Positions 1-54,494 of a stretch of 64,000 nucleotides of DNA are shown here, piece by piece; position 1 is the first letter of the stretch, and every line of letters starts with the position of its first letter. The position numbers were made by a program, and so were the translations under genes. The stretch is from Polynucleobacter meluiroseus. Its GTDB lineage: Bacteria > Pseudomonadota > Gammaproteobacteria > Burkholderiales > Burkholderiaceae. The stretch covers positions 121,577-185,576 of the forward strand of contig CALRYF010000003.1 in assembly GCA_943372325.1 (NCBI GenBank), given 5' to 3'. The notes below the pieces were generated by a model. That model worked only from the letters and a program-made list of their open reading frames with translations. It ran no database searches and was not told where the DNA came from.

Positions 1-1170
1 ATTGCGGCATTAACTAATCGTTTTATTGCTGCGATGCATGCTGATTCTGATGAGCTAGAGTTAATGCATCCTGATCAAGAGCCACGTGCTACGGATTACA
101 TTGCGCAAATGCAGGGCATGATCGGCAAACTCATTGAAAACGAATTGGCATACCAAGCTAATGATGGTGATGTCAATTTTGCTGTGCGCCTATTGCCACG
201 TTACGGTCAGTTGTCTGGTAAGACCTTAGATGAGCTCAATGCGGGTGAGCGTGTTGCTGTTGGAGATGGCAAGCGTGATCCATTAGATTTTGTTTTATGG
301 AAAAGCGCTAAGCCAGAGGAGCCTGCTGATACGCGTTGGAAGTCACCATGGGGTGAGGGTCGTCCAGGTTGGCATATTGAGTGCTCGGCAATGTCCTGTG
401 ACTTGCTTGGTGAGCACTTTGACATTCATGGCGGTGGTGCTGACTTACAGTTTCCGCATCATGAAAATGAGATCGCCCAAAGCGAAGGCGCCTTATACGG
501 AAAGGACCGTAAGGAAGCTGATACACCCTTTGTTAATTACTGGATGCATAACGGCCACATTCGGGTGAATGAAGAGAAGATGTCTAAGTCATTAGGCAAT
601 TTCTTTCTCATTCGGGATGTTCTCAAAAGCTTTAACCCTGAAGTACTGCGCTTCTTCATGCTGAAGGCGCATTACCGCAGTCCGATTAATTACAGCGATG
701 CTCAGCTAGAAGAGGCTCGCTCGGGCTTGGCGCGTTTGTATACGGCATTGGCGCATGGTCCTGAAGCCGAAGTAAAACTTCTAGATCCTAATAATCCATG
801 GGCTAAGCGCTTTGCTGATGCCATGAATGATGACTTCAATACGCCAGAGGCGATTGCAGTTTTATTTGACTTGGCTAGCGAAGTAAATCGGGCCCAAGGT
901 GACGAAAAGCAAATGCTTGCAAACACAATGAGGTCGCTGGGAGCTTCTTTGAATTTCTTGCAGCGTAACCCAACCGAGTTTTTGCAAGCGGGATCTAAAG
1001 AGCAAGACGGCTTAAGCCCAGCACAAATTGAAGAGCAAATTTCAGCCCGCGTTGCGGCTAAGCAAGCTAAAGATTTTGCTCAAGCGGATATGATTCGTAA
1101 AACATTATTAGAACAGGGCATCGTTCTAGAAGATAAACCCGGCGGCTTAACAGAATGGCGTAGGGCTTAA
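1..1170 (+). CDS. cysS: cysteine--tRNA ligase, C-terminal ~390 aa (5' end lies upstream of the window)
   Basis: The reading frame is open from base 1. It has the class-I aaRS KMSKS motif ([12 protein letters not shown]), a WHIECSAM segment and [15 protein letters not shown]. Confidence 0.95.
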
Positions 1171-1835
1171 TGACAGCAGCAAAAGAAATAAAGTCGGAAT
1201 CAGTTTTGCAAGCAATTGCTCCTGACTATTGGGAGCAGGCTTGTAAAGAATTGATGAAGCAAGATCGCATTCTCAAAAAAATCATTCCTAAAATTGGATC
1301 AGGATTTTTAGTGACTCGTGGCGATTCTTTTAATACTTTAGCAAGGTCGATTGTTGGACAGCAGATTTCTGTAGCAGCGGCTCAATCGGTTTGGACTAGG
1401 GTGCTTACTGCTAGCAAAAAGAAGGTCACTCCCAAAAATATCCTAGCGCTTTCCGTAGAAGAATTACGCGCTGCTGGTTTATCTGGACGCAAGGTCGAAT
1501 ACATCCGTGATTTAGCGGATCACTTCGATTCTGGTCGTCTGCACGCGAACCAGTGGAAAGAGATGGACGATGAGAGCGTTATTAAAGAATTAAGCGCTAT
1601 TCGGGGCATTGGTCGCTGGACCGCTGAAATGTTCCTCATTTTCAATATGGTGCGGCCTGATATTCTGCCCCTGGACGATGCTGGCCTGATTAAGGCCATT
1701 TCCCTGAATTACTTCAGTGGAGAGCCTGTGAGCCGTCATGAAGCCCGTGAGGTGGCTGCTAATTGGGCTCCCTGGCGTACGGTTGCCACCTGGTATATGT
1801 GGAGAAGTCTCGACCCAATCCCAGTTGAATATTAA
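1170..1835 (+). CDS. HhH-GPD family DNA glycosylase (3-methyladenine DNA glycosylase II-like)
   Basis: It has a helix-hairpin-helix region (IRGIGRWTAEMFLIF), the LPLDDAGL catalytic Asp segment and QQISVAAAQSVW. Its ATG overlaps the cysS stop (TAATG). Confidence 0.8.
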   Translation: MTAAKEIKSESVLQAIAPDYWEQACKELMKQDRILKKIIPKIGSGFLVTRGDSFNTLARSIVGQQISVAAAQSVWTRVLTASKKKVTPKNILALSVEELRAAGLSGRKVEYIRDLADHFDSGRLHANQWKEMDDESVIKELSAIRGIGRWTAEMFLIFNMVRPDILPLDDAGLIKAISLNYFSGEPVSRHEAREVAANWAPWRTVATWYMWRSLDPIPVEY

Positions 1836-1844
1836 AATCAGGCT

Positions 1845-2816
1845 ATGAAAACAACTTTCCTAGATTTTGAGCAGCAAATCGCGGAATTAGAATCCAAGAT
1901 TGAAGAACTGCGTTTTGTACAAGATGAGTCATCGGTAGATATCTCCGATGAGATCAAAACGCTTGCAGAAAAAAGTCAGCAGCTGACAAAAGATGTTTAT
2001 GCCAATCTCACTCCTTGGCAGGTGTCTCAAGTGGCGCGTCATCCACAGCGTCCTTACACCCTCGATTATGTTGGCGCCTTGTTTACTGACTTTCATGAAT
2101 TGCATGGCGATCGTACTTTTGCAGATGATCAATCCATCATCGGCGGCTTAGCCCGTTTTGAAAATCAACCTTGTATGGTGATTGGTCACCAAAAGGGTCG
2201 CGATACTAAAGAGCGTGCTCTCAGAAACTTTGGTATGAGTCGTCCTGAGGGCTATCGTAAAGCGATGCGCTTGATGCGCCTGGCAGAAAAGTTTGGTATC
2301 CCTGTTTTTACTTTTGTTGATACACCTGGTGCATTTCCAGGGATTGATGCCGAAGAACGTAATCAGTCTGAGGCGATTGGTCGAAACCTATACGTGCAAG
2401 CAGAACTCGAAGTTCCTATCATCGCTACCATTATTGGTGAGGGTGGCTCTGGCGGTGCTTTAGCCATCGCCATGGGTGACGTAGTTCTGATGTTGCAAAA
2501 CTCTACTTACTCAGTGATCTCACCTGAAGGTTGTGCTTCCATCTTATGGAAGACGGCTGACAAGGCGCCTGAGGCTGCTGAGCAGCTGGGCCTTACTGCA
2601 CAGCGCTTAAAAACCTTAGGCCTGATTGATAAAATTGTGGCTGAGCCTACCGGTGGCGCACATCGCGACTACGACAATATGATGAGCAATATGCGTAAAG
2701 CACTCACTGAATCCTTAAAAACTTTCGATGGGATGAAAGTGGATGCATTACTTGAGCGTCGTCATGAGCGTTTGATGAGTTATGGCAAGTTCAAGGAAAT
2801 CACAGCAAAGTCCTAA
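1845..2816 (+). CDS. accA: acetyl-CoA carboxylase carboxyltransferase subunit alpha
   Basis: The 323-aa length fits, as do the AccA strings [34 protein letters not shown] and [11 protein letters not shown]. Confidence 0.95.
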
Positions 2817-4104
2817 ACTGGGAAAACGAATTGCGGTTGCCCTCAGCGGTGGCCTCGATTCGGTTGTGTTGCTCGATACGGTTTGCAAAGCGCAAGCTAA
2901 TGCAAGCAACCAAAACAAAAATCAAATCTATGCCTTTCATATTCATCATGGATTGCAAAAACCTGCAGATGAATGGTTGATCTTTTGCGAGAAGCTCGCT
3001 AAACAATATAAGATCCACTTTGATTTCAGACTGCTTCATCTCAACGCCGAAGAAGCGCAAGGTAATATCGAAGCGAGAGCAAGAGCAGGGCGTTATGAAG
3101 CCCTCACAGATCTGTGTGAAGAATATGGCATTGAAGACCTGCTCTTAGCGCATCATCAAAACGATCAAGCAGAGACTGTTTTATTGCAGCTCCTGCGCGG
3201 TTCAGGGGTGGCGGGCTTATCTGGTATGCCATCCAGTAGAAAAATCACTACCCAAGGTCAAAGCCACCAGGGCATCACACTTTGGCGACCACTCTTAGAT
3301 CAAAGTCGGCAAGAGCTTGAGGCGTACGCTAAAGAACACAAACTGAAATGGATCGAAGATCCCAGCAATCAAGATACAAAGTACCGCCGTAATGCAGTGC
3401 GCAAGAAAATCATTCCTGCCTTAGAAAAGATTCAGCCTGAAGCGTTAGCCAATATGGCACGTAGTGCTAATCTTTTAGGTGAAGCGCAAACATTACTCAA
3501 TCGCTTAGCGCAGCAAGACGGCAAAACTATTCTCAATCAAGACAAACTAAAAGTATTGCCCTTGCTCACCTTGGCTAAGGATGATTTGCCTGCGGCAAAT
3601 AATGTCTTGCGGTACTGGTTACAAACGCAACATTTGGCGATGCCATCACAAGAGCGCTTGCAGGCTTGGTGGCGTGATCTTGCTAAAGTCAAAGCAGATG
3701 CCAATCTTGAATGGCAACATGATGAGAGAAAGATTTACCTTTGGCGCGGTGTGCTGCAAGTAGCGAATATAGAAGCAGGGCGCTGGGTTCTTAAAACATT
3801 AGCAGCCAACTCTAAGAAATTGGGTTTGCCCGCTGATTGGGTCACTGAAGCCCAAAAGAATCAACAAATCCATCTTAAAGAACGTCTAGGTTCAGAGAGG
3901 ATCCAGATCAAGCCTAAGACGCCTCGTAAAACACTTAAAAACCTCTTCCAAGAGGCTGATGTGCCGCCTTGGGAGCGTCATGCGCCATTGCTCTTTATCA
4001 ATGATGAATTGGTCGCCGTAGCCGGGATTGGGCTTAGTTATCCACTCCTCACGTCCACGGGTAGGCGTGTGCTCCCGGAATGGGTACAAAACCCTGTAAA
4101 ATAA
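2782..4104 (+). CDS. tilS: tRNA(Ile)-lysidine synthetase
   Basis: It has the N-terminal PP-loop SGGLDS, the internal [19 protein letters not shown] motif and a C-terminal TilS domain. Its start overlaps accA by 35 nt, so the exact start is uncertain. Confidence 0.88.
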
Positions 4105-4165
4105 GCCCTTTTTAGACCCTCAAGGAATCAATTCCTTGTTACAGATAGTTAGATAGACGGTTTTT

Positions 4166-5416
4166 ATGGCTCTTATCGTTCATAAATATGGCGGCACCTC
4201 AATGGGCTCAACTGAGCGCATTGCGAATGTTGCTAAACGCGTAGCTAAATGGATGCGTGCTGGTCACCAAGTGGTGGTCGTGCCCTCAGCGATGTCTGGC
4301 GAGACCAATCGCTTGCTGGGCCTTGCAAAAGAGATTAATCCTGAAGCAAGTCCACGTGAGTTAGATCAGATTGCTTCCACTGGTGAGCAAGTAAGCTCTG
4401 GTTTATTAGCCTTGGCATTGATGCGTGAAGGGATTGATGCAGTTAGTTATGCAGGTTGGCAAGTAACTGTACATACCGATTCCTCATTTACTAAAGCGCG
4501 TATCAAAAGTATTGATGATCAAAAAATCTTGGCAGATCTCAATGCTGGTCGCGCTGTAGTAGTGACTGGTTTCCAAGGTGTTGATTCTGACGGCAACATC
4601 ACAACGCTTGGTCGTGGTGGTTCAGACACATCGGCCGTAGCAATGGCAGCAGCTTTAAAAGCGGACGAGTGTTTAATCTATACCGACGTAGATGGTGTTT
4701 ATACAACCGACCCACGTGTTTGCGAAGAGGCACGTCGTTTAGACAAAATTACTTTTGAAGAGATGCTCGAAATGGCAAGCTTAGGTTCAAAGGTATTGCA
4801 GATTCGTTCAGTTGAATTTGCAGGTAAGTACAAAGTTAAAACCCGGGTGCTGTCTTCATTGACAGACCCATTAATGCCTTTAGACCAAGAGATGAAGTCG
4901 GGCACCTTGATTACATTTGAAGAGGACAGCACTATGGAAGCCGCAGTTATTTCCGGCATCGCCTTTGCGCGTGATGAAGCGAAAATTACCGTTCTTGGAG
5001 TTCCTGATCGTCCAGGTATTGCCTATCAAATTCTGGGTCCGATTGCGGATGCCAATATTGATGTGGATATCATTATTCAGAACCAATCGGTAGATGGTAA
5101 GACGGACTTCACCTTCACAGTCCCACGCGCTGATTATCAAAAAGCATTAGATATTCTGAAGAACACAGTGCAAGCGCACATCGAAGCAAAAGAAATCTCT
5201 GGTGATCCAAAGGTATCTAAAGTTTCAGTAGTGGGCGTAGGTATGCGTTCTCACGTTGGTATTGCCAGCAAGATGTTCCGCACCTTGTCAGAAGAGGGCA
5301 TCAATATCCTGATGATCTCCACAAGCGAAATCAAGATCTCAGTAGTAATCGATGAGAAATACATGGAATTGGCTGTACGCGCCTTGCATAAGGCATTTGA
5401 GTTAGATCAGAAGTAA
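4166..5416 (+). CDS. lysC: aspartate kinase
   Basis: It starts with VHKYGGTSMGS, contains TTLGRGGSDTSAVA and YTDVDGVYTTDPR, and ends in two ACT-like regions. Confidence 0.95.
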   Translation: MALIVHKYGGTSMGSTERIANVAKRVAKWMRAGHQVVVVPSAMSGETNRLLGLAKEINPEASPRELDQIASTGEQVSSGLLALALMREGIDAVSYAGWQVTVHTDSSFTKARIKSIDDQKILADLNAGRAVVVTGFQGVDSDGNITTLGRGGSDTSAVAMAAALKADECLIYTDVDGVYTTDPRVCEEARRLDKITFEEMLEMASLGSKVLQIRSVEFAGKYKVKTRVLSSLTDPLMPLDQEMKSGTLITFEEDSTMEAAVISGIAFARDEAKITVLGVPDRPGIAYQILGPIADANIDVDIIIQNQSVDGKTDFTFTVPRADYQKALDILKNTVQAHIEAKEISGDPKVSKVSVVGVGMRSHVGIASKMFRTLSEEGINILMISTSEIKISVVIDEKYMELAVRALHKAFELDQK

Positions 5417-5489
5417 GTCAAAAAGCGTAATAAATCCCTCAAAAGCGGTTATCCGTTAAACTGTGGGACGTTGTAATAGTAAGAAGTAC

Positions 5490-5584
5490 GGAGACGTGGC
5501 CGAGCTGGTCGAAGGCACTCCCCTGCTAAGGGAGCATCGGGGCTAAAACTCTGATCGGAGGTTCGAATCCTCTCGTCTCCGCCA
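5490..5584 (+). tRNA. tRNA-Ser (GCU anticodon), CCA encoded
   Basis: The sequence GGAGACGTGGCCGAGCTGGTCGAAGGC...CTCCC-CTGCTAA-GGGAG...GGTTCGAATCC...CGTCTCCGCCA folds as a cloverleaf. It has a long variable arm, and the anticodon loop reads GCT. Confidence 0.9.
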
Positions 5585-5599
5585 AGGAGTCAATAGGTA

Positions 5600-5628
5600 A
5601 AAGGGCTTTTTAGCCCTTTTTTCTTTTT
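5600..5628 (+). terminator. rho-independent terminator after tRNA-Ser
   Basis: AAAGGGCT-TTTT-AGCCCTTT is a perfect 8-bp stem followed by a T-run. Confidence 0.8.
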
Positions 5629-5660
5629 CACCACAATTTTCCCCATATTTAATCCTCAAT

Positions 5661-5696
5661 CCACTCCTCGGAGTGGTTTTTTATTGCCCAATCTAG
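5661..5696 (+). repeat. cassette repeat copy 1: hairpin CCACTC-CTCG-GAGTGG + T6 + ATTGCCCAATCTAG
   Basis: It is near-identical to 8644-8679, and to 5952-5977 as far as TTATTGC. It is terminator-like, yet no gene lies immediately upstream. Confidence 0.7.
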
Positions 5697-5776
5697 GGCA
5701 ATACCTATTCCAAACCTTCAACATACTTATGCTAGGATTTGATTGTGAATACCCCACTACCTATAGGAGATTAAAC

Positions 5777-5905
5777 ATGCCAGTACAACAGATTGAATTA
5801 GAAGAGGTAACAATGATGGAGGCGAGTGATAATGCTTTAGAGGTAAGTGGAGGTGGGGCTGCAGCAGCAACTTACTCCCTTCCTACCCTTGCCTGGCCCT
5901 GCTAA
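5777..5905 (+). CDS. candidate RiPP/bacteriocin-type precursor peptide A (42 aa): MPVQQIELEEVTMMEASDNALEVSGGGAAAATYSLPTLAWPC
   Basis: An AGGAGA Shine-Dalgarno sits 7 nt upstream of the ATG at 5777. The leader is 18/26 identical to the peptide at 8488, and a hairpin-T6 terminator follows. The ORF track lists it only as the tail of a 73-aa TTG-start ORF. Confidence 0.6.
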   Translation: MPVQQIELEEVTMMEASDNALEVSGGGAAAATYSLPTLAWPC

Positions 5906-5951
5906 CCTAAATTGCGTATTCTTTTGGGTGATTTTTATGCTGCACCACCAA

Positions 5952-5977
5952 CCACTCTTCGGAGTGGTTTTTTATTG
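5952..5977 (+). terminator. cassette repeat copy 2 / terminator of peptide A (CCACTC-TTCG-GAGTGG + T6)
   Basis: A perfect 6-bp stem carries a UUCG tetraloop and is followed by a T-run. Homology to copies 1 and 3 stops after TTATTGC, where the IS-like remnant begins. Confidence 0.75.
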
Positions 5978-6280
5978 CTAAGGTTTTCTGTGTATTTGTT
6001 CAAACTCTAGCGCTTTTTGGAATAAAGCCAATTCTTTTTCCTTATCTTCTTTCTGCTTAATCAAGTCTTTTCCTCTAATAACCTGGCTTTCCTTTAAAAG
6101 TCTTTGAAGGGTAGGCTTAACGCTACTCTTGTTGGACTTCATTTCCCAAAAGTCACTTTTAAATCTATTGAAATTTTTTTTACTCGCCCATCTATTTAAC
6201 AAAGCAGGAGATAGGCCTTAAGAAGCTGAGATCTGCTTAACCCACTGTATCCCGACCTCGCCTTTACAATCTGTTTCCAT
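5978..6280 (-). pseudogene. decayed IS3-family orfA (HTH_Tnp_1-like transposase N-terminal protein)
   Basis: The minus-strand translation is METDCKGEVGIQWVKQISAS*GLSPALLNRW...TLQRLLKESQVIRGKDLIKQKEDKEKELALFQKALEF. It combines a GIS-x-x-L-x-RW type helix-turn-helix with a coiled-coil tail and is broken by an in-frame stop. No orfB is present. Confidence 0.45.
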
Positions 6281-6340
6281 GCGTCAGAACTGCATAGTAA
6301 TATGCAGTTACTAGTCCATCAGAAAGAAAGGCATGATCCC

Positions 6341-6814
6341 ATGTTCAGAAAACTTGCTATTTCCCTTTTACTTCTTGCTTGTTCTTTTAGTACGTCTTCA
6401 CAAAATGCTAAAGACCCAGTGAGTTGGTTGTTTTTAGTGAATGCTAAAAGTGTTGCCATTGAAGGAAATAAACTAATTCTGAGTAATGTCAAGCCGAATG
6501 TAGTAGCATTTAGTGACCGTCCATTTCGTAAGGCTAAGCACATTTCTGCAACTACTTTAAGTAAGCTTTGGCAAGATTCTAGAAGTGCTGATAGCTTTAA
6601 AAAAGATCCTCCTAATGCAGTAATAGTGGCGAGTAATGCTGATGGGACTTTGTCAAAAGATATGGTGGTGGAGTTAACAGGCGCTCAATATGCCAGTAAC
6701 AAGCTCACTTTTACCTTTAAAACCATTAGGGGTGAACTAGACGGCGTAACAAATGAACCTAGTCTATTCATAGACACTGGCGGCTTGATGCAGCTTGTAA
6801 ATTACCAGCCCTAG
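6341..6814 (+). CDS. small secreted protein of unknown function (157 aa)
   Basis: A Sec signal peptide (MFRKLAISLLLLACSFSTSSQNA) starts at the internal ATG at 6341. I recognise no catalytic motif. Confidence 0.6.
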   Translation: MFRKLAISLLLLACSFSTSSQNAKDPVSWLFLVNAKSVAIEGNKLILSNVKPNVVAFSDRPFRKAKHISATTLSKLWQDSRSADSFKKDPPNAVIVASNADGTLSKDMVVELTGAQYASNKLTFTFKTIRGELDGVTNEPSLFIDTGGLMQLVNYQP

Positions 6815-7046
6815 CATCCATCAAGATGTCCAACTTATCGTCTAAGATGTTAATTAATTTGCCATATTGCTTAGAATGTAAGTTCGACATAGTATCAAGC
6901 CACCCTACGGAGTAGTTTTTCTGCATATGAAAAACCCCAGCCTATCCCCTCCTATCGGAGGGTGTTCAGCAGTCAGGAACTATCTAATAATTTGACGTGA
7001 ACACAGATGCACTGCCATATATATAACGCGGTGAAGTACCCCGCTA

Positions 7047-8153
7047 GTGCAAATGATTAAATTTGAAGAAGAGACCATGGTAGAAATCGGTGATGAAGTT
7101 TTGCAACAGCAGACTGTCAAGCAAACCCTTTTTGATTTAGACTCTTTTTCTAAAAAATATCTCCTTGATTGGGAGAAAAAGTCCACGGTGAGATCTGGCA
7201 AGAGAAGTCGTCTAGACAAGACAATGATCTCAAAGGTAGAGTTCCCGTACATCATTAAGCAATTTCTTCAGTATCCAGAAATTAAGGCCTTGAGCCAAGA
7301 GGAGTTGCAGCCCTTTTATCTACAGTCATTATGTAATGTGCTGTACGGCGTGACTCAATTTGAAGTTAACTTTGTTGCTGATCAATGTGGAAAGTTAGCC
7401 AATAAAGATTTAGGAGTTGAGCTCAGCACTTCCATTGCGCAGGTAGCGCTTGCAATTGGTACTGATGAGATGTATCACGCTTTTGCGGCAAGAGAATTAC
7501 TAGCTGACATTGAGGAGTTGACAGGAGTTATTCCAGAAGCTGCTCAGAAATCAAGCTCACAACCACGAAAAGATGATTTAGGAAGCTCTAACAAGCAGAC
7601 TAAAGCGCCTTTTTCTCCCGCCGAATATTTTAAAAATGCAGTGCCTGAAAAATTAGAGCGGATAGCTGAAACTACTTTGCTATGTATTTTAGAAAATGCA
7701 ATCGTAGATGATTTATTTGAAATGGCTAAAGATTTTCAGACTACCAATCCTGTAGCCATATACAACCGAGAGCATTTACATGATGAAGGTCGTCATAAGG
7801 TATTTTTTCAGCGTCTATTGAAATATATATGGGGCGCTCTCTCAGAGGGGGATCGCATCTGTTTAGGGCAGGCTATTGCTGGGTATTATGAAAACTATTC
7901 TCGGCCGCCGTCTTATGATGAGCTGCTGCAAGTTACATCTATAAATCTTCAAAAACTTCCTTTATCTGAGGATGTCGTTCAGTCGATTGCACCGCGGGTA
8001 GCTAAATCAATGACTAGTCAGCCTCTGCATGAAACAGACTTTTTTAAGAATCCAATGCGGTTGATGGCTTTTGCAGGGATCTCAGACCATCTCCCAACCC
8101 GCGAATTGTTCCTGAAGATTGGTTTAATTGCTCCATCACTAGAAACTGCGTAA
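7047..8153 (+). CDS. AurF-type (ferritin-like) diiron oxygenase
   Basis: Candidate ligands are E106, E141xxH144 (DEMYH), E216, and H243-x3-E247-x2-H250 (HLHDEGRH). This spacing matches the seven-ligand AurF/CmlI pattern. The start may instead be the ATG at 7077. Confidence 0.7.
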   Translation: MQMIKFEEETMVEIGDEVLQQQTVKQTLFDLDSFSKKYLLDWEKKSTVRSGKRSRLDKTMISKVEFPYIIKQFLQYPEIKALSQEELQPFYLQSLCNVLYGVTQFEVNFVADQCGKLANKDLGVELSTSIAQVALAIGTDEMYHAFAARELLADIEELTGVIPEAAQKSSSQPRKDDLGSSNKQTKAPFSPAEYFKNAVPEKLERIAETTLLCILENAIVDDLFEMAKDFQTTNPVAIYNREHLHDEGRHKVFFQRLLKYIWGALSEGDRICLGQAIAGYYENYSRPPSYDELLQVTSINLQKLPLSEDVVQSIAPRVAKSMTSQPLHETDFFKNPMRLMAFAGISDHLPTRELFLKIGLIAPSLETA

Positions 8154-8487
8154 CGAGCAAGTTAATAACTTATCAAACTAGTATTGCCCTTGTTTATAAA
8201 AAGGCGCTTACTTTTTGCCCATCCATTCCAAGCGGTGTTAATACATCATTCTTTACTTCTTAGAGCCTGCACTTTTGATGGGGCACTATTAGATTAGTTT
8301 ATATCTCTTGTAAGGTAAAACCCTTGGGCAGATTTTGCATCTTAGGGTCACTGGACCAATGCCCACTTTATAACCATTCTACGAAGCAGTTTTTATTGTC
8401 CAATTTAGTGAATAACCTGTTTCAATAATTCAAATAGGTATGCTATCGTTTAGCTGTGGATAACCCACACCTTTAAGGGGATTAAAG

Positions 8488-8622
8488 ATGCCAGTACAAA
8501 TGATTGAATTAGAAGAAGTATCTTTGGTTGAGGCTAGTGATGATGTTTTGGAAATGAGTTTGGGTAATAGCGCGCAGTGTGTAACTGCCCCTACCTCAGG
8601 ATGCTGCTGTTGGGATACGTAA
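8488..8622 (+). CDS. candidate RiPP/bacteriocin-type precursor peptide B (44 aa): MPVQMIELEEVSLVEASDDVLEMSLGNSAQCVTAPTSGCCCWDT
   Basis: It is too short to appear in the ORF track. An AAGGGGA Shine-Dalgarno sits 7 nt upstream of the ATG. The leader and about 100 nt upstream are homologous to peptide A, and a hairpin-T6 terminator follows. Confidence 0.6.
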   Translation: MPVQMIELEEVSLVEASDDVLEMSLGNSAQCVTAPTSGCCCWDT

Positions 8623-8643
8623 TGTATCTTGCAGTATTACTAA

Positions 8644-8679
8644 CCACTCTATGGAGTGGTTTTTTATTGCCCAATCTAG
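8644..8679 (+). terminator. cassette repeat copy 3 / terminator of peptide B (CCACTC-TATG-GAGTGG + T6 + ATTGCCCAATCTAG)
   Basis: A perfect 6-bp stem is followed by a T-run. Outside the loop, the 36 nt match copy 1. Confidence 0.75.
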
Positions 8680-8787
8680 AAACGGATCTCTTCTAAACCT
8701 TCAAACAAGCGTGCCAAACAGATAAAGAGGCAACCATATTATTAGCCGAGGCTTCCATTGCTAAAAATAAAGTGTTTCTGCAAAAAT

Positions 8788-28882: not shown

Positions 28883-30217
28883 ATGATAGAGAAAAATTAT
28901 TTTCTACAAGTGCTGCGGGATGAGTTTGACGCTCTTAAAGAGCTTTTTTTCAAAAATAAAGTGCTCATTCTCTGTTTGGCTACTATTCTTATAGTCAGCC
29001 TTTTTGTTATTGATCCCATTCCCGCGCGCAACATCCAAGTAGCCTTTTCAGGATCAGATTCTGGATACGCTTTAATTGCCCGAGATCAGCAGATCTATTT
29101 GAAAGATAGGGGGATAAATCTAAATACCCAAGGAACGAATAGCTCAAGAGAGAGTGCATTACTTTTGGTGGATCCCAATAGCGGGGTTGATCTTGCTTTT
29201 ATTCAAGGCGGAATCTTGGATAAAAAACTTGCTGAAAGTATTGAATCGCTCGGTAGTGTGGCCTATGAACCAGTTTGGATTTTTTATAACAAGCGCATTG
29301 AAAAAAGGCTAGATCATTTCAAGGACTTAGCTAACTTAAGGGTGGGTATTGGCTCTAAGGACTCTGGAACCTGGGCTGTAGCAAAGCAACTTTTTGCTTT
29401 AAACAATATCGATATCGAATCGGACCCTCGTTTTCGATCGGATAGTCACCAAAATAACTTAAACGATTTTTTGAGCGGCAAGTTAGATGTTGTCATTAAT
29501 GTTAATCCGCATATCGATCCCGTGGTTTACCGCCTGCTGCATGAGCCGACTGCATCTTTATTTGAGTTGCCCCACGCGGTGGCATACGATAAAAATCTGC
29601 CTTTCATTAAGGTTGTCACGCTGGCAGCCTCATCAATTGATATTCCAAATCAAATACCGCCTAAGGACATTTCTTTGCTAGCCACGCCAACGACCCTTGC
29701 CGTTCGGAAAGGAGTTCATCCCAGTTTGCAGATGATGGTGATGATGGCAACAAAGGATGCGCAGCGTGTTTCTAATAACTTATTTATAAGTAATGAAGAA
29801 AAATTTCCTGCCTATATAGACCCAACAATTCCTATTAGTGCTGCGGCCACTTATTTCTATGACTTTGGTTTGCCGCAAACTCTCCGTTATTTGCCATTTT
29901 GGCTAGGGGGATTTATAGACAAAATGTGGTTGGTTTTACTGACATTGCTGGCTATTATTTATCCGCTGCTGAATATCAATATCAAGCTAAGAACAATCCT
30001 TTATCAAAATAGTGTTGCGCGCATTCGTAGAAAATGCCTATTTATAGATCGTGAACTAGATCTTGATCACTTAGGTTCTGACCAAAGAAATTTGATACTT
30101 GTACGCCTATCCAATATGCGTGAGAAGTTGTCAACTAAACGAGTGCCTATTGATTCAGAATCAGATTACTTTGATACCTTAAAGCTGCTTAATGATTTAA
30201 TCGCCAAGGCAAAATGA
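28883..30217 (+). CDS. TAXI/NMT1-like substrate-binding domain protein with N- and C-terminal TM helices
   Basis: An N-terminal TM (VLILCLATILIVSLFVI) is followed by a periplasmic-binding-like core. A second TM (MWLVLLTLLAIIYPLL) and a charged helical tail complete the protein. Confidence 0.45.
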   Translation: MIEKNYFLQVLRDEFDALKELFFKNKVLILCLATILIVSLFVIDPIPARNIQVAFSGSDSGYALIARDQQIYLKDRGINLNTQGTNSSRESALLLVDPNSGVDLAFIQGGILDKKLAESIESLGSVAYEPVWIFYNKRIEKRLDHFKDLANLRVGIGSKDSGTWAVAKQLFALNNIDIESDPRFRSDSHQNNLNDFLSGKLDVVINVNPHIDPVVYRLLHEPTASLFELPHAVAYDKNLPFIKVVTLAASSIDIPNQIPPKDISLLATPTTLAVRKGVHPSLQMMVMMATKDAQRVSNNLFISNEEKFPAYIDPTIPISAAATYFYDFGLPQTLRYLPFWLGGFIDKMWLVLLTLLAIIYPLLNINIKLRTILYQNSVARIRRKCLFIDRELDLDHLGSDQRNLILVRLSNMREKLSTKRVPIDSESDYFDTLKLLNDLIAKAK

Positions 30218-34056: not shown

Positions 34057-35319
34057 ATGAACGCCTTCCGTTTTGCAATTTTATGTTCTCTTCTTGGGTT
34101 GGCCGGTTGTACCGCCATCAATTCAACAAGCTTTACAAACATGTCATCTGCTTATCGTGATGTTGTGGAGGAATATAGCAATACTAATATTCTCTTGAAT
34201 ATTGTTCGCGCTTCAAAAGATATGCCAATGAGTTTTTTAGATATTCCCTCGGTTATTGGTACGGGGAATGTTTTATCCAATGCTAACGTAACTACTAGCC
34301 AAAGTGCGGGAACTTTTGCTACACCTCCCTCAGTCATTGGAGGATCTCTTGGATTGACTGTCAATAATGGCTTTACATTTACACAGGCATCTTTGGATAA
34401 CGCGCAATTTATGGGTTCTTTTTTGAAGGAAATCCCTTTAAATATTTTAGGTTTTAAAGGAACAGAGAGGCTTTTGCCTAGGGCAGTCTCATACTCTATT
34501 CTGATCGAGAGCATAGAGTTGCGTAGTAATAATGCATTAGTGCGCCGCTTTGATAATGATCCATTGGACCGGAATTATGAAGATTTTCAGCAGATCTTAT
34601 ATTTATTGATTGATGCTGGTTTGACGGTTGAGAATGCTACTGATAAGACTCCATTAGGCCCTCCAATTGAAAAGTCATCTCTCAATCGCTCCCTTGAATC
34701 GTGGGGGCCATCCACTATTGATGGTATGGCAAAGGGTTCATTATCTTTGGATAAAGCAATGGTGAATGGGCGGGAAATGTATCAGCTCAACCGAACTGAG
34801 ACTACAACGCGAGCCTGCGTTAACAAATATCGTGCAGAACAACTTTTGGGTGATGCTTTAAGTCCCTCGGCTTACTGCAAAGACTCTCTACGATTAGAGA
34901 ATTCAAAGCAAAAATACTCCAAAGTAATGCAGGATTTTGTGATTAAGAATGTAAATGCCAAAAATATGGAGCTGGCAATTGGAATTCGCTCCCCTGGAAA
35001 TGCCTTTGATTTTTTGGGTTCTGTACTGAATGCCCAGTTTGATAGTGGTGGCTCAAAATTGGTCATGATTAAACCCTCTCCACTTGAATTAAATCGCTAT
35101 GGATCTGGAGCGCCTGATCCACGACCTTTATTCAAGGTATATAGGGATGCAAATTTTATTAATCCAGTAGCAGTAGTTAGCTATAAAGGCGTGACTTATT
35201 CAGTGCCCGACGATGATGGATCCTATACTAAAAATGTTTTAGAGTTTATGTCTACATTAGTGACAATGGCAAAAATACCTGGTTCTGTTCCTTCCTCACC
35301 TGCGGTGATAGTGCGCTAG
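34057..35319 (+). CDS. lipoprotein of unknown function (420 aa)
   Basis: It has a signal peptide with lipobox LLGLAGC and no recognised catalytic motif. Confidence 0.55.
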   Translation: MNAFRFAILCSLLGLAGCTAINSTSFTNMSSAYRDVVEEYSNTNILLNIVRASKDMPMSFLDIPSVIGTGNVLSNANVTTSQSAGTFATPPSVIGGSLGLTVNNGFTFTQASLDNAQFMGSFLKEIPLNILGFKGTERLLPRAVSYSILIESIELRSNNALVRRFDNDPLDRNYEDFQQILYLLIDAGLTVENATDKTPLGPPIEKSSLNRSLESWGPSTIDGMAKGSLSLDKAMVNGREMYQLNRTETTTRACVNKYRAEQLLGDALSPSAYCKDSLRLENSKQKYSKVMQDFVIKNVNAKNMELAIGIRSPGNAFDFLGSVLNAQFDSGGSKLVMIKPSPLELNRYGSGAPDPRPLFKVYRDANFINPVAVVSYKGVTYSVPDDDGSYTKNVLEFMSTLVTMAKIPGSVPSSPAVIVR

Positions 35320-40278: not shown

Positions 40279-40799
40279 TTCAAAAGCAAACTATTTCGTT
40301 AATGGTAAATGGCTCAGTCATTAGCAAGGATGTCATTCCCGGAATCTCTTTGGCGGATTTCCTGCATGAAGATCTTAATTTAACGGGCACTAAGGTAACT
40401 TGTGCGCTGGGTATCTGCAAGGCATGTACGGTTGCCATTAAGCCGATTGGCTCCGATCAATTGTCTAGGGCCCAGGCATGTATTACTCCTGTTACCAGTC
40501 TTTCTGGATTTCAGGTTTTAACAGTCGAAGGCTTGGCAAATGAGCCATTATTTCAACCCCTGCAATCGGCCTTCTTAAAGCACTTTTCTTTTCAGTGTGG
40601 ATATTGCGCCCCCGGTTTTTTAATGGGAGCTTCATTGCTCATACAGCAATTGAAGGCCAATCCAGTAAAAATGGAAGCCGTTGATAATGCTATTTCTGAA
40701 GGGTTGGGAGATCATATTTGTCGATGCACGGGTTATGTTCGCTACTATGCAGCCATTAAGGAGGTTATTTTAGATACACCCGGCTTAATTGATGGCTAA
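40275..40799 (+). CDS. [2Fe-2S]-binding small subunit of the molybdenum hydroxylase
   Basis: Its cysteine motifs are CALGICKACTV, QCGYCAPGF and CRCTGY. It overlaps the large-subunit stop by 4 nt. Confidence 0.85.
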   Translation: MIQKQTISLMVNGSVISKDVIPGISLADFLHEDLNLTGTKVTCALGICKACTVAIKPIGSDQLSRAQACITPVTSLSGFQVLTVEGLANEPLFQPLQSAFLKHFSFQCGYCAPGFLMGASLLIQQLKANPVKMEAVDNAISEGLGDHICRCTGYVRYYAAIKEVILDTPGLIDG

Positions 40800-41739
40800 A
40801 TTATTTTCTCAAAAAGGGTTAGTTTATTTATCTATTGGATTAACTCTTTTTTCAATATCTACGCTAGCCCTGGCAGATGATTGGAGTGATTTCTATATTG
40901 GGTATCGCTATGGTAAAAACTTTTCCGACCCTTACCAAGGTAATGCAATCCCTAAAAATATTTTGAACTTTGCCTATACAGGAAGTTATCGCTATGGCAC
41001 GAACTACTTCAATATAGACCTGTTAAAATCAACCAGCGGCGACCCTGAGATTGGAAGCACTCAGGGCGCAACCGAAGCATATGCGGTATATCGAAATGTT
41101 GTCTATGCGAGCAAGGTCTTTGATGCCCAGTACCAATATGGTTGGGTTCGAGATATTGGTGCTACGGCTGGATTTGACTGGAACACCAAGAACAACGCTT
41201 ACCAGTCAGAAAAGAGAATGCTGGTGATTGGCCCTACTGTAATGTTTGATGTGCCCGGCTTTTTAAATGCCAGTATTTTTGCCTTATGGGAAAGTAATCA
41301 CCCGAGTAATTGTGCTTACGCCAATAATTTGCCCGCAAGTACCTGTAATCCAAGCACTGCATTACCTAATGGCAGGTATCAATACAAAACCCACCCTTCA
41401 TTGAATGTGGTGTGGGGAATTCCACTGGAGCTTGGCTCAGCACGGTTTAATTTCAAAGGTTTTATGGACTATATTGCGAGTAAGGGAAATTTGGAAAGTG
41501 GTAATCCCTCAGCTCCTGAGACACATATTAATGTAATGATGATGTACGATATGAGCTCATGGTGGGGCGTCAAGAACAACACGCTCCAAATTGGCCTTCA
41601 GTATGAGTACTGGATGAATAAGTTTGGTAATTACAACAGTGGGAGCGCTGGAAATCCCGCTTACAGCTCTCCCACACCAAACTCACCGAATGGCGCCTTT
41701 GCAAGCACTCCAGCCATTCGTTTTGAATTCCATTTCTAG
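40789..41739 (+). CDS. outer-membrane beta-barrel channel (tentatively Tsx/OmpK-like)
   Basis: It has a signal peptide (...STLALA), an aromatic-rich alternating pattern and a terminal F. It overlaps the 2Fe-2S gene by 11 nt. The family assignment is tentative. Confidence 0.45.
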   Translation: MMAKLFSQKGLVYLSIGLTLFSISTLALADDWSDFYIGYRYGKNFSDPYQGNAIPKNILNFAYTGSYRYGTNYFNIDLLKSTSGDPEIGSTQGATEAYAVYRNVVYASKVFDAQYQYGWVRDIGATAGFDWNTKNNAYQSEKRMLVIGPTVMFDVPGFLNASIFALWESNHPSNCAYANNLPASTCNPSTALPNGRYQYKTHPSLNVVWGIPLELGSARFNFKGFMDYIASKGNLESGNPSAPETHINVMMMYDMSSWWGVKNNTLQIGLQYEYWMNKFGNYNSGSAGNPAYSSPTPNSPNGAFASTPAIRFEFHF

Positions 41740-45193: not shown

Positions 45194-45285
45194 GTGAGGG
45201 AGGTGGAACCGGAGGTTATTCCTGTATAAAATGAAACAATACTAAACTTTATACCAATCCCTAATTTCTTTATAGATTGCGACGG

Positions 45286-47133: not shown

Positions 47134-47138
47134 GTGAT

Positions 47139-48521: not shown

Positions 48522-48549
48522 TTCATACTTAAATTAATATTTTTTATAC

Positions 48550-49659: not shown

Positions 49660-49670
49660 GGAGTTTAGAC

Positions 49671-51476: not shown

Positions 51477-51509
51477 CTTGCAGCAATCTGGATAGGGCTG
51501 TATCGCTAG

Positions 51510-53102: not shown

Positions 53103-53357
53103 TTAGGAAGCTATGTTTTTATAAATGAACTAAAAATTATTAATTATTATAAATTTATTAATAGCACAAATAATACCAATAATGGAATACGTATTTTTGC
53201 TGAGTACCCGCTGCGCTATAGCTGGCGGCATATCAGGAGTTCTAGCATTAAATTCAGATCTACAAGTAGCAGATTTCAATTGAATTGAATTCCAGGTAGT
53301 CTGATATATAGTTGCAAATAAAAGTGTATTTATAAATCCATCTAATGCCTGAATATT

Positions 53358-53918: not shown

Positions 53919-53951
53919 ACATCCCATTTAGCGCTACCGAAAGACTATTCA

Positions 53952-54482: not shown

Positions 54483-54494
54483 GTAGTTTTGAAG

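What the first reader, a model, noticed from the sequence alone, without database searches (positions are those of the whole stretch)
5777..8622. Two small paralogous genes with a shared acidic leader and unrelated Cys/Thr/Trp-rich tails: candidate RiPP or bacteriocin precursors
**The two peptides.**
- Peptide A (5777-5905) is MPVQQIELEEVTMMEASDNALEVSGG / GAAAATYSLPTLAWPC.
- Peptide B (8488-8622) is MPVQMIELEEVSLVEASDDVLEMSLG / NSAQCVTAPTSGCCCWDT.
- By hand alignment the first 26 residues are 18/26 identical, and the remaining 16 and 18 residues cannot be aligned.

**Gene context.**
- Each has a purine-rich Shine-Dalgarno sequence about 7 nt before the ATG.
- Each has about 100 nt of homologous upstream sequence and its own hairpin-T6 terminator.
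- B falls below the ORF-track length cutoff. A is listed only inside a longer TTG-start ORF.

**Interpretation.**
- A conserved acidic leader ending in GG or LG, followed by a hypervariable core rich in Cys, Ser/Thr and Trp, is the architecture of RiPP precursors and double-glycine bacteriocins.
- No LanB/C/M, YcaO, radical-SAM, MNIO or C39-peptidase ABC exporter is visible anywhere in the window.
- The only genes between the two peptides are an AurF-type diiron oxygenase and a small secreted protein.
- The peptides are therefore either orphan precursors or part of an undescribed maturation route.
Basis: partly seen in the sequence, partly recalled or inferred. Interest (0 to 1): 0.85.

Follow-up and report, generated by a model that had tools for sequence, protein, structure and literature searches.

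The report
Lanthipeptide precursor genes in eroded cluster
The two small genes are real, selectively maintained precursors of ribosomal peptide natural products. They belong to a very large, unannotated family of freshwater-bacterial lanthipeptide precursors. Here they sit in the stripped-down remnant of a gene cluster that has lost its main modifying enzyme (LanM) but kept an uncharacterised iron-dependent oxygenase.

Summary
**Observation.** It is confirmed exactly. Peptides A (5777-5905) and B (8488-8622) share a leader, upstream DNA, a Shine-Dalgarno site and hairpin-T terminators.

**New findings in the window**
- A third copy of the leader is fused in frame to the start of the diiron gene (7047-7116).
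- A 36-codon LanM pseudogene stub with stop codons lies at 8235-8342.

**Related loci**
- In Polynucleobacter arcticus and at least seven other loci, homologous peptides lie directly beside a class II lanthipeptide synthetase (LanM). In most of these loci the same diiron gene is present too.
- A profile of the peptides finds at least 2,383 peptide clusters. They have near-invariant leaders and hypervariable cores rich in Cys, Ser and Thr. They often occur as arrays far from any enzyme, as the prochlorosins do.
- Distant homologues of the diiron enzyme flank YcaO/SagB clusters. The enzyme has the AurF fold and all seven AurF metal ligands.

**Selection.** A relative that shares the same LanM deletion shows purifying selection:
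- Core of peptide B: 5 synonymous and 0 non-synonymous changes.
- Diiron gene: dN/dS about 0.13.

**Possible LanM in trans.** The sequencing run that yields a contig identical to the window also yields a second, intact precursor-diiron-LanM cluster.

**Verdict.** These are LanA-family precursors in a reduced satellite locus. They are probably matured by a LanM in trans plus the local diiron enzyme, whose chemistry is unknown. This is a new variant of a known kind.

The parts
5490..5584 (+). tRNA-Ser(GCU). It marks the left edge of the roughly 3.2-kb island. The aspartokinase/tRNA-Ser site is used repeatedly by lanthipeptide clusters.
   Evidence: ARAGORN and Rfam. In L044/L045, LanM sits beside the same aspartokinase-TilS-AccA-HhH_GPD-CysS block.
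5661..5682 (+). Orphan hairpin-T element, CCACTCCTCGGAGTGG followed by T6. No gene lies upstream for it to terminate, so it is probably the terminator of a lost upstream precursor cassette.
   Evidence: Repeat family D1 and terminator scan.
5683..5776 (+). Conserved upstream region of the precursor cassette, including the Shine-Dalgarno site AGGAG. It is presumed to hold the promoter and 5' UTR.
   Evidence: Repeat families D1 and D2 and alignment A2. No sigma-70 consensus match was found on this strand.
5777..5905 (+). Precursor peptide A (42 aa). Leader: MPVQQIELEEVTMMEASDNALEVSGG(G). Core: (G)AAAATYSLPTLAWPC.
   Evidence: Translation. Leader HMM E = 3e-14. Present in the protein database as P0074.
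5950..5977 (+). Intrinsic terminator of peptide A.
   Evidence: Terminator scan.
6900..6962 (+). Relic of a lost precursor cassette. It comprises a degenerate terminator (6900-6920) and the hairpin CCCCTCCTATCGGAGGG (6946-6962). In P. arcticus that hairpin precedes each precursor gene.
   Evidence: blastn aligns window 6898-6968 with L024 9418-9484. See also sequence and alignment A2.
7041..7116 (+). Leader-derived N-terminal extension of the diiron ORF. The ancestral ATG is now CCG (7041-7043). Usable start codons are GTG 7047, ATG 7053 and ATG 7077. The conserved IELEE motif has become IKFEE.
   Evidence: Repeat family D3 and tblastn. The relatives P0002 and L032 start MPVQIIELEEETMIEVGDEVLQQQ. 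Selection is relaxed here: 6 non-synonymous against 2 synonymous changes in 26 codons.
7047..8153 (+). AurF/CmlI-fold diiron oxygenase, a conserved tailoring partner of LanM and YcaO clusters. Its ancestral start codon (7119-7121) is now AAG, so translation must begin in the leader-derived segment.
   Evidence: Pfam AurF E = 1e-4, below the gathering score. AlphaFold2 pLDDT 86. Foldseek best matches CmlI and AurF, E about 1e-4, TM about 0.6. Invariant residues are E106, E141, H144, E216, H243, E247 and H250. dN/dS is 0.12-0.14.
8235..8342 (+). LanM pseudogene stub covering about the first 36 codons. It has in-frame stops at TAG 8295 and TAA 8316. Homology ends abruptly at 8342.
   Evidence: tblastn of the L001 LanM: residues 4-36, 58% identity. 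blastn aligns window 7117-8342 with L024 9999-11228 at 80%. L026 and L032 have the same breakpoint.
8373..8487 (+). Degenerate hairpin-T relic (8373-8394) and the conserved upstream region, with Shine-Dalgarno site, of cassette B.
   Evidence: Repeat families D1 and D2 and alignment A2.
8488..8622 (+). Precursor peptide B (44 aa). Leader: MPVQMIELEEVSLVEASDDVLEMSLG. Core: NSAQCVTAPTSGCCCWDT.
   Evidence: Translation. Leader HMM E = 4e-14. The ortholog P0086/L032 has an identical core, with 5 synonymous and 0 non-synonymous changes. Against L026 there are 2 synonymous and 0 non-synonymous changes.
8642..8669 (+). Intrinsic terminator of peptide B.
   Evidence: Terminator scan.

Best explanation
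**What they are.** Peptides A and B are LanA-type (class II lanthipeptide) precursors. They belong to a large family of freshwater Burkholderiales peptides with a conserved acidic leader and a hypervariable core rich in Cys, Ser and Thr.

**How the locus arose (shown by comparison).**
- The ancestral cluster was several precursor genes, then the diiron oxygenase, then LanM, then an SbmA/BacA-like transporter.
- One deletion removed all of LanM except its first 36 codons, together with what followed it.
- Another deletion fused the leader of a precursor in frame to the diiron gene. That gene now depends on the precursor-type upstream region and start codon.

**How it probably works now (inferred).**
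- A and B are still expressed from their own cassettes.
- Their Ser/Thr residues are dehydrated and cross-linked to Cys by a LanM supplied in trans. The likely source is a second, intact precursor-diiron-LanM cluster that appears to be in the same genome.
- The local diiron enzyme adds an O2-dependent oxidation of unknown type.
- Leader removal and export use unidentified factors.
For: **Family and linkage to LanM**
- The leader profile hits A and B at E about 1e-14. It also hits peptides directly beside LanM in L004, L024/L025, L034, L035, L045 and L046/L047, and a leader fragment at the end of the LanM locus L001.
- LanM identity is confirmed by Pfam DUF4135 plus LANC_like.
- The family has at least 2,383 90%-identity clusters. 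All 89 MNIELDE-type cores examined contain both Ser/Thr and Cys.
- Precursor arrays more than 10 kb from any enzyme are normal in this family.

**Erosion of the cluster**
- The LanM stub has one breakpoint shared by the window, L026 and L032.
- The leader-diiron fusion is also shared with these relatives.

**Continued function**
- Window against L032, core of B: 5 synonymous and 0 non-synonymous changes. The chance that all five are synonymous is about 4e-4.
- Diiron gene: dN/dS 0.12-0.14.

**LanM in trans**
- The Logan run ERR9580602 yields a contig 100% identical to window 1-8669 (L031).
- The same run yields a contig (L034) carrying precursor, diiron and LanM.
- The L034 proteins are recorded on a 747-kb NCBI contig whose accessions are hidden, as are those of the window's 395-kb contig.
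- The composition of L034 is Polynucleobacter-like.
Against: - No intact LanM, exporter or protease lies in the 64-kb window.
- Assigning L034 to the same genome is circumstantial. It rests on a shared sequencing run, hidden accessions and composition.
- The L034 LanM is only 49% identical to the P. arcticus-type LanM. Its own precursor leader is about 36% identical to that of B (my position-by-position count on the sequence), so cross-recognition is unproven.
- Peptide A has no ortholog other than the identical copy, so selection on it cannot be measured.
- The cleavage site is not conserved: GGG in A, LG-N in B and no GG in the P. arcticus paralogues.
- Zwartia-type loci (L005, L006) pair one precursor with the diiron gene, with no LanM or LanM stub within 6 kb. 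This fits a LanM-independent role equally well.
Confidence: 0.6

Rival explanations
1. **LanM-independent pathway.** The precursors and the diiron oxygenase form a self-sufficient RiPP module. The diiron enzyme is the primary, class-defining modifying enzyme and recognises the shared SD[DE][AV]L[ED] leader motif. LanM or YcaO/SagB are add-ons in other genomes.
For: - The diiron gene and the core of B have stayed under purifying selection since LanM was deleted.
- L005 (Zwartia hollandica) and L006 carry only precursor plus diiron, with no LanM or stub within 6 kb.
- The diiron family is the only enzyme shared by the LanM-type and YcaO-type clusters. The two otherwise different precursor families share an SD[DE]AL[ED] motif.
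- A family-specific, basic N-terminal segment with invariant L39, W42, T47, R49 and R53 lies outside the AurF core. It could bind the acidic leader.
Against: - LanM-only clusters with the same leader family exist (L046/L047), and most of the family is probably LanM-linked.
- The diiron family is small beside the 2,383 peptide clusters: 66 clusters, and 86 representatives at E <= 1e-30.
- A second LanM cluster probably exists in the same genome.
- LSDEELE-like motifs are common in many RiPP leaders (my own knowledge), so the shared motif is weak evidence.
Confidence: 0.2
2. **Decaying relic.** After LanM was lost, the whole locus became a non-functional remnant on its way to deletion. The intact ORFs are a matter of time.
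For: - LanM is reduced to a stub with stop codons.
- The accessory genes of the full cluster are absent: SbmA/BacA, ABC, DUF697, Band_7 and ParA-like.
- The fused leader has lost its ATG and the invariant IELEE motif.
- Relic hairpins of lost cassettes remain.
- Peptide A has no orthologs.
Against: - The deletion predates a split with pS about 0.31. Even so, the diiron gene has dN/dS about 0.13 and the core of B has 5 synonymous and 0 non-synonymous changes.
- Both peptides keep a start codon, a Shine-Dalgarno site and a terminator.
- The relative L032 carries an extra intact precursor C.
Confidence: 0.13
3. **Unmodified peptides.** A and B are double-glycine-leader bacteriocins or signalling peptides. 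They are cleaved and exported by a C39 peptidase-ABC transporter elsewhere, with no post-translational modification of the core.
For: - The leader is acidic, and a GG(G) motif is present in A and in most MNIELDE-type relatives (AAGGAQGG).
Against: - The family is consistently adjacent to LanM.
- No C39 or PCAT gene was seen in any cluster examined.
- B and the P. arcticus paralogues lack a GG/GA/GS site.
- The cores are very short (mean 14 aa) and 13% Cys, which is typical of cross-linked peptides.
Confidence: 0.05

Closest known systems
Prochlorosins (ProcA precursors with the promiscuous class II synthetase ProcM in marine Prochlorococcus and Synechococcus)
   Same: - The leader is highly conserved and the core is short and hypervariable, containing Cys, Ser and Thr.
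- There are many paralogues per genome, in tandem arrays.
- Arrays are often far from the single LanM-type enzyme and sit in islands next to integrases or IS elements.
   Different: - The leader is unrelated to Nif11/NHLP leaders. NCBIfam gave no hit.
- The hosts are freshwater Betaproteobacteria.
- A subset of clusters carries an AurF-like diiron oxygenase and an SbmA/BacA-like transporter, which is not a feature of prochlorosin loci to my knowledge.
- No product has been characterised.
Canonical class II lantibiotic clusters (LanA, LanM and LanT(P), for example lacticin 481 and mersacidin)
   Same: - LanM has DUF4135 plus LANC_like domains and lies next to small precursors with an acidic leader.
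   Different: - No LanT with a C39 peptidase domain.
- No LanFEG/LanI immunity genes.
- No LanD.
- In the window itself LanM is only a pseudogene stub.
AurF and CmlI arylamine N-oxygenases, and PvfB-like N-oxygenases linked to NRPS
   Same: - Ferritin-like diiron fold: Foldseek best hits are CmlI 5hyh and AurF 2jcd/3chh.
- The ligand spacing is E-x34-E-x2-H ... E-x26-H-x3-E-x2-H. This is identical to AurF E101/E136/H139/E196/H223/E227/H230 (ligand numbering from my knowledge of the AurF structure; invariant columns).
- More distant members of the profile family (E about 1e-23 to 1e-34) include AurF-domain-A-T-C NRPS fusions.
   Different: - Sequence identity is 12-16%, the Pfam score is below the gathering threshold, and profile against PDB gives E about 0.8.
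- It has an extra conserved basic N-terminal segment and a disordered insert at residues 169-186.
- Its genomic partners are ribosomal precursor peptides with LanM or YcaO/SagB, not aminobenzoate or NRPS pathways.
- Its substrate and reaction are unknown.
Engineered leader-enzyme fusions (the LctM and LynD 'constitutively activated' constructs)
   Same: - A RiPP leader sequence is covalently attached to the N-terminus of a RiPP-modifying enzyme.
   Different: - Here the fusion is natural. It arose by deletion and supplies the start codon.
- The fused leader evolves under relaxed constraint and has lost conserved residues in the window lineage.
- Activation in cis is therefore unlikely and untested.

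Membership tests
Class II lanthipeptide precursor (LanA) | An N-terminal leader and a C-terminal core that contains both Ser/Thr and Cys. | tested here: met
   The core of A has T, S, T and one C. The core of B has five S/T and four C.
Class II lanthipeptide precursor (LanA) | Homology to peptides encoded directly beside a LanM gene. | tested here: met
   The leader HMM gives E about 1e-14 for A and B. The same HMM hits peptides adjacent to LanM in L004, L024/L025, L034, L035 and L046/L047.
Class II lanthipeptide precursor (LanA) | A functional LanM encoded in the same locus. | tested here: not met
   Only a 36-codon stub with stop codons lies at 8235-8342. No other LanM-like sequence is present in the 64 kb.
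Class II lanthipeptide precursor (LanA) | A LanM elsewhere in the same genome. | tested here: inconclusive
   L034 (precursor-diiron-LanM) comes from the same run, ERR9580602, as the window-identical contig L031. Its accessions are hidden in the same way as the window's. The link to the genome is not proven.
Class II lanthipeptide precursor (LanA) | (Methyl)lanthionine thioether rings in the mature product. | not testable with these tools
   This needs mass spectrometry or NMR of the product.
Double-glycine leader peptides processed by a C39 peptidase-ABC exporter | GG, GA or GS at positions -2/-1, with the LSxxELxxIxGG-type spacing. | tested here: inconclusive
   A has SGGG with S at -11 and L at -7 if cut after the third G. 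B has LG-N. The P. arcticus paralogues have no GG. The MNIELDE-type relatives have AAGGAQGG.
Double-glycine leader peptides processed by a C39 peptidase-ABC exporter | An associated C39-domain ABC transporter. | tested here: not met
   None is present in the window. None is present in the intact clusters. The 543-aa ABC protein there shows only an ABC_tran domain.
AurF/CmlI-type diiron N-oxygenase (Pfam PF11583) | A ferritin-like four-helix-bundle fold most similar to AurF and CmlI. | tested here: met
   AlphaFold2 pLDDT is 86. The top eight Foldseek hits are CmlI or AurF, with E from 1e-4 to 3e-3.
AurF/CmlI-type diiron N-oxygenase (Pfam PF11583) | Seven metal ligands (four Glu, three His) with the AurF spacing. 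| tested here: met
   E106, E141, H144, E216, H243, E247 and H250 are invariant in 20 sequences that go down to 28% identity. The AurF ligand numbering comes from my knowledge of the structure.
AurF/CmlI-type diiron N-oxygenase (Pfam PF11583) | A Pfam score above the curated gathering threshold. | tested here: not met
   The score is 21.8 bits against a cut-off of 29.6. Some homologues carry a precomputed PF11583 hit.
AurF/CmlI-type diiron N-oxygenase (Pfam PF11583) | N-oxygenation of an amine substrate. | not testable with these tools
   This needs an enzyme assay.
Prochlorosin-like combinatorial lanthipeptide system | Many paralogous precursors with a conserved leader and hypervariable core, scattered away from one LanM. 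| tested here: met
   There are at least 2,383 clusters. Arrays of 2-7 genes lie more than 10 km... more than 10 kb from any enzyme in L027, L029 and L030.
Prochlorosin-like combinatorial lanthipeptide system | A Nif11- or NHLP-type leader. | tested here: not met
   NCBIfam gave no hit at E <= 1, apart from a spurious 0.18 hit.

The most novel reading that the evidence does not exclude
The AurF-like diiron oxygenase may be a leader-dependent, peptide-modifying enzyme that suffices on its own to mature these precursors. That would make it a new RiPP class-defining enzyme. Lineages that lost LanM (the window clade) or never had it nearby (Zwartia-type loci) would then keep a precursor-plus-diiron module that makes an oxidised, non-lanthionine product. 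The natural leader-enzyme fusion might also retain a role in substrate recruitment.
Probability: 0.2. Interest if true: 0.85.

Novelty: new variant of a known kind. Interest (0 to 1): 0.6.

Why it matters
**If the reading is right**
- Abundant freshwater bacterioplankton such as Polynucleobacter and its relatives carry a prochlorosin-like combinatorial library of lanthipeptides. It comprises thousands of distinct cores, all currently annotated as 'hypothetical protein' or not called at all.
- An AurF/PvfB-like diiron oxygenase is a recurrent and so far uncharacterised tailoring enzyme. It occurs in both lanthipeptide (LanM) and azol(in)e (YcaO/SagB) clusters. Neither my full-text searches nor my own knowledge turned up a ferritin-like diiron enzyme in RiPP biosynthesis.

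**What the window offers.** It is a natural experiment. LanM was deleted, yet the core peptide and the oxygenase remain under selection. This makes two questions directly testable:
- Do satellite precursors use a LanM in trans?
- What does the oxygenase do, and can it act alone?

**Annotation.** The case shows that 40-45-aa genes with clear family membership are being missed.

Tried and rejected
- **Curated families for the peptides and neighbouring small proteins.** NCBIfam and Pfam returned nothing.
- **Recovering the window's own genome to look for LanM.** Two window proteins were not on record. Peptide A led only to an identical 37-kb Logan contig.
- **Metagenome scan with the P. arcticus LanM to measure how often LanM has a diiron neighbour.** The patterns taken from a single sequence were too specific. 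Only one close locus (L035) was found, and the rest were 25%-identity LanMs from gut metagenomes. That co-occurrence frequency therefore remains unmeasured.
- **A leader shared between LanM-type and YcaO-type precursors.** The LanM-type leader HMM does not hit the YcaO-type loci. Only a short SD[DE]AL[ED] motif is shared.
- **An att-like repeat of the tRNA-Ser 3' end at the right edge of the island.** No repeat of 10 nt or more was found.
- **A structured RNA in the conserved upstream regions.** Rfam found only the tRNA.
- **A sigma-70 promoter in the cassettes.** There was no consensus match on the + strand.
- **Literature.** Nine full-text searches covered lanthipeptide/LanM/RiPP with AurF, diiron or N-oxygenase, Polynucleobacter with lanthipeptide or lantibiotic, and the leader string VSDDALE. 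None found a description of this system.
- **The 157-aa secreted protein and the AMP-binding gene as cluster members.** I rejected the first because it is absent from L026 and L032. I rejected the second because its linkage is seen only in L005 and L006, and in the window it lies 3 kb away on the other strand.

Full report
**1. The observation**

The two ORFs are exactly as described. Peptide A (5777-5905) is MPVQQIELEEVTMMEASDNALEVSGGGAAAATYSLPTLAWPC. Peptide B (8488-8622) is MPVQMIELEEVSLVEASDDVLEMSLGNSAQCVTAPTSGCCCWDT.

- The leaders are 18/26 identical, and in-window tblastn of A against B gives E = 6e-9.
- DNA homology extends upstream of both genes (126 nt at 75% identity). Further upstream it reaches a shared hairpin-T element, CCACTCnnnGGAGTGG followed by T6 and ATTGCCCAATCTAG. 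This element occurs at 5661, 5952 and 8644, and in degenerate form at 8373.
- Each gene has a Shine-Dalgarno site 7 nt before the ATG and a terminator-like hairpin after it.
- The window is 44% G+C. Its closest relatives are Polynucleobacter.

**2.

- *A third copy of the leader.* The repeat finder and tblastn both show that the first 20 or so codons of the 'AurF-type' ORF (7047-8153) are a third copy of the leader: VQMIKFEEETMVEIGDEVLQ (family D3, E = 4e-4).
  - The ancestral ATG is CCG here.
  - A 90%-identical relative (P0002/L032) still begins MPVQIIELEEETMIEVGDEVLQQQ.
  - Most homologues are 344 aa and start at the position that is now AAG (7119) in the window. The enzyme must therefore be translated from the leader-derived segment.
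  - Upstream of this segment lie the relic terminator and the hairpin of a precursor cassette (6900-6962).
- *A LanM stub.* tblastn with a LanM found in related loci hits the window only at 8244-8342, matching LanM residues 4-36 at 58% identity.
  - DNA homology to the P. arcticus cluster runs from 7117 to 8342 at 80% identity. That covers the diiron gene, the spacer and the first 36 LanM codons, and then it stops.
  - The stub contains in-frame TAG and TAA codons.

**3. Related loci**

The diiron protein has 66 relatives in the large protein set. A scan of one genome per species gave 23 loci.

- In the closest ones (L001-L004), the neighbouring gene is a 1,070-1,080-aa LanM with DUF4135 plus LANC_like domains.
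- In L011-L022 the neighbours are a fused YcaO cyclodehydratase and a SagB/ThcOx-type dehydrogenase.
- The complete P. arcticus genome (L024) shows the full arrangement. It has four precursors (MPVQMIELEEV... or MQ.. variants), then the diiron gene, then LanM, then an SbmA/BacA-like transporter.
  - A divergent operon encodes a ParA-like protein, a 161-aa protein, DUF697, a 543-aa ABC protein and Band_7.
  - The whole cluster is bounded by IS elements.
- L035, L034 and L004 repeat the trio of precursor(s), diiron and LanM.
- L046/L047 (Zwartia vadi) has precursor plus LanM without the diiron gene.
- L005 (Zwartia hollandica) and L006 have precursor plus diiron without LanM, and no LanM stub, within 6 kb.

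**4. The peptide family**

A profile of ten precursors retrieved 2,383 clusters at E <= 1.

- The listed members are dominated by MNIELDEVVVQDVSDDALE[MLQ]AAGGAQGG followed by a core of 10-20 residues.
- Among 89 such cores:
  - the mean length is 14.4 aa;
  - Cys makes up 13% and Ser plus Thr 19%;
  - every core has both Ser/Thr and Cys;
  - the last Cys is the C-terminal residue in 47 of 89 and within three residues of the end in 79 of 89.
- None of the listed members carries a Pfam domain or a functional name. NCBIfam has no model for A or B.
- Arrays of 2-7 such genes lie more than 10 kb from any modifying enzyme. They sit in islands with integrases, primases or IS elements (L027, L029, L030). 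This is the prochlorosin pattern.
- Precursors without a local enzyme are therefore normal in this family.
- The YcaO-type loci have a different precursor family: EF[TS]D[DE]LSDEALDR followed by a short Cys-rich core. There are eight in tandem in L018.

**5. Is the window locus alive?**

Three related sequences bear on this.

- L031 is 100% identical to window 1-8669.
- L026 is 97.8% identical over window 6943-8745. It has the same fused diiron gene, LanM stub and peptide B.
- L032 and L033 are 84-91% identical. They have the same fusion, the same LanM breakpoint, an ortholog of B and an extra precursor C.

The LanM deletion is therefore a single old event, with pS about 0.31 at the diiron gene since the split. 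Since then:

| Region | Synonymous | Non-synonymous | Note |
|---|---|---|---|
| Core of B (window vs L032) | 5 | 0 | Chance that all five are synonymous is about 4e-4 |
| Leader of B (window vs L032) | 1 | 3 | All conservative |
| Diiron gene (window vs L032) | 75 | 37 | dN/dS 0.12-0.14 |
| Diiron gene (window vs L026) | 14 | 6 | |
| Fused leader segment (26 codons) | 2 | 6 | Relaxed constraint |

The precursors and the oxygenase remain functional. The fused leader is probably only a source of a promoter and start codon.

**6. Where could LanM come from?**

- The best LanM homologue with an NCBI source on a 747,253-bp contig (P0217) could be fetched only from the Logan assembly of run ERR9580602. 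That is the same run that gave the window-identical contig.
- That locus (L034) carries three genes in order:
  - a 47-aa precursor, MILQITELEVVQKLSITDEDIESSGLQTGTTWSQEGSGVSCTSCSCL;
  - a diiron gene 52% identical to the window's;
  - a LanM of 1,084 aa.
- Its proteins have hidden accessions, as the window's do. Its neighbours cluster with Polynucleobacter proteins, and its tetranucleotide profile correlates with the window at r = 0.9.
- This is suggestive, but not proof, that the same genome holds an intact second cluster able to act in trans.

**7. The diiron enzyme**

- The AlphaFold2 model has pLDDT 86. It matches CmlI and AurF best, with Foldseek E about 1e-4 and TM about 0.6.
- The invariant residues E106, E141, H144, E216, H243, E247 and H250 reproduce the AurF seven-ligand spacing. 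The AurF numbering comes from my knowledge of the structure.
- Sequence similarity to AurF is marginal: the Pfam score is below the gathering threshold, and the profile against PDB gives E about 0.8.
- The profile family has 692 representatives at 50% identity with E <= 1e-3, and 86 with E <= 1e-30. More distant members include AurF-domain-A-T-C NRPS fusions. These resemble the PvfB-type N-oxygenases, which act on carrier-bound amino acids (my own knowledge).
- A conserved basic N-terminal segment (residues 25-80, with KSTVRTGKRSRL) lies outside the AurF core. It is a candidate binding site for the acidic leader. This is inference only.
- The reaction is unknown. I expect an O2-dependent oxidation of the core.

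**8. Mechanism**

*Shown:*
- family membership;
- synteny with LanM;
- the deletion and fusion history;
- selective constraint;
- the fold and metal ligands of the oxygenase.

*Inferred from established class II lanthipeptide biochemistry:*
- LanM binds the leader.
- It phosphorylates and eliminates Ser/Thr, then adds Cys thiols to form rings. B could form up to four rings and A one.
- The diiron enzyme oxidises a residue.
- An unidentified protease and exporter finish the job.

*Unknown:*
- whether LanM acts in trans here;
- the cleavage site;
- the oxygenase chemistry.

**9. Novelty and verdict**

- No paper describing this leader family, a LanM plus AurF-like cluster, or Polynucleobacter lanthipeptides was found in nine full-text searches.
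- The peptides are new members of a known kind (LanA).
- The cluster type is a new variant: a diiron tailoring enzyme shared with YcaO clusters, an SbmA-like transporter and no C39 exporter.
- The window adds a natural LanM-loss state with retained selection and a natural leader-enzyme fusion.
- Interest is moderate to high (0.6). The finding is not categorically new, but it opens a large unannotated peptide family and an uncharacterised class of RiPP enzyme to direct experiment.

Noticed in passing
window 4166-5584; L044 237-5658; L045 118-5503: The aspartokinase/tRNA-Ser(GCU) junction appears to be a recurrent insertion site for lanthipeptide clusters. A Burkholderiaceae MAG with 53% G+C has its LanM next to the same CysS-HhH_GPD-AccA-TilS-aspartokinase block that forms window 34-5416.
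   Followed up: partly
window 6341-6814 (+): A 157-aa protein with a signal peptide has no Pfam or NCBIfam family. It lies between peptide A and the diiron gene. It is absent from the same position in the close relatives L026 and L032, so it is probably an unrelated insertion.
   Followed up: partly
window 5978-6202 (-): A 74-aa ORF rich in Lys and Glu lies on the opposite strand just after the terminator of peptide A. It has no family hit, and it is unclear whether it is a gene.
   Followed up: no
L018 3236-5559: A Polynucleobacter MAG carries eight tandem precursor genes directly upstream of diiron-YcaO-SagB-ABC. Each has the leader ..EF[ST]DDL[SF]DEALDR.. and a short Cys-rich core, and two copies are identical. 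This looks like an unannotated azol(in)e-peptide family that shares the diiron enzyme.
   Followed up: partly
P0394, P0397, P0401, P0408, P0419, P0451, P0439: More distant members of the diiron profile family are N-terminal AurF-like domains fused to NRPS A-T-C, A-T or T modules. This suggests the wider family acts on tethered amino-acid or peptide substrates.
   Followed up: partly
L027 9397-10772: Seven tandem MNIELDE-type precursor genes lie inside an integrative element of a 4.5-Mb Burkholderiaceae genome. The element carries a D5-type primase, DUF3987, Toprim, AlpA and an integrase. Precursor arrays therefore seem to travel on mobile elements without their enzymes.
   Followed up: no
L001 5874-5954: A decayed leader-only ORF, MPANVIELENAQLLEFTVEHFESITN, lies immediately upstream of the diiron gene. 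It is an independent example of precursor erosion at the position where the window has the leader-enzyme fusion.
   Followed up: partly
L024 8720-8740, 9180-9200, 9462-9482; window 6946-6962: The hairpin CCC(C)TCC(G/T)ATC(G/A)GAGGG is conserved about 100 nt upstream of three of the four P. arcticus precursor genes, and also upstream of the fused diiron gene in the window. It is not followed by a T-run. It could be an operator or an RNA element, and its function is unknown.
   Followed up: no
window 45277-56300: Two paralogous carboxylesterase genes (45277-47133 on +, 54495-56300 on -) bracket several other genes. These encode an FAD-linked oxidase, an RCC1-repeat protein, a multicopper oxidase and a flavin amine oxidase. 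The block looks like an accessory catabolic island.
   Followed up: no
window 28883-30217, 34057-35319, 40789-41739, 41744-42826: Four ORFs of 316-444 aa have no Pfam family at E <= 1e-5.
   Followed up: no
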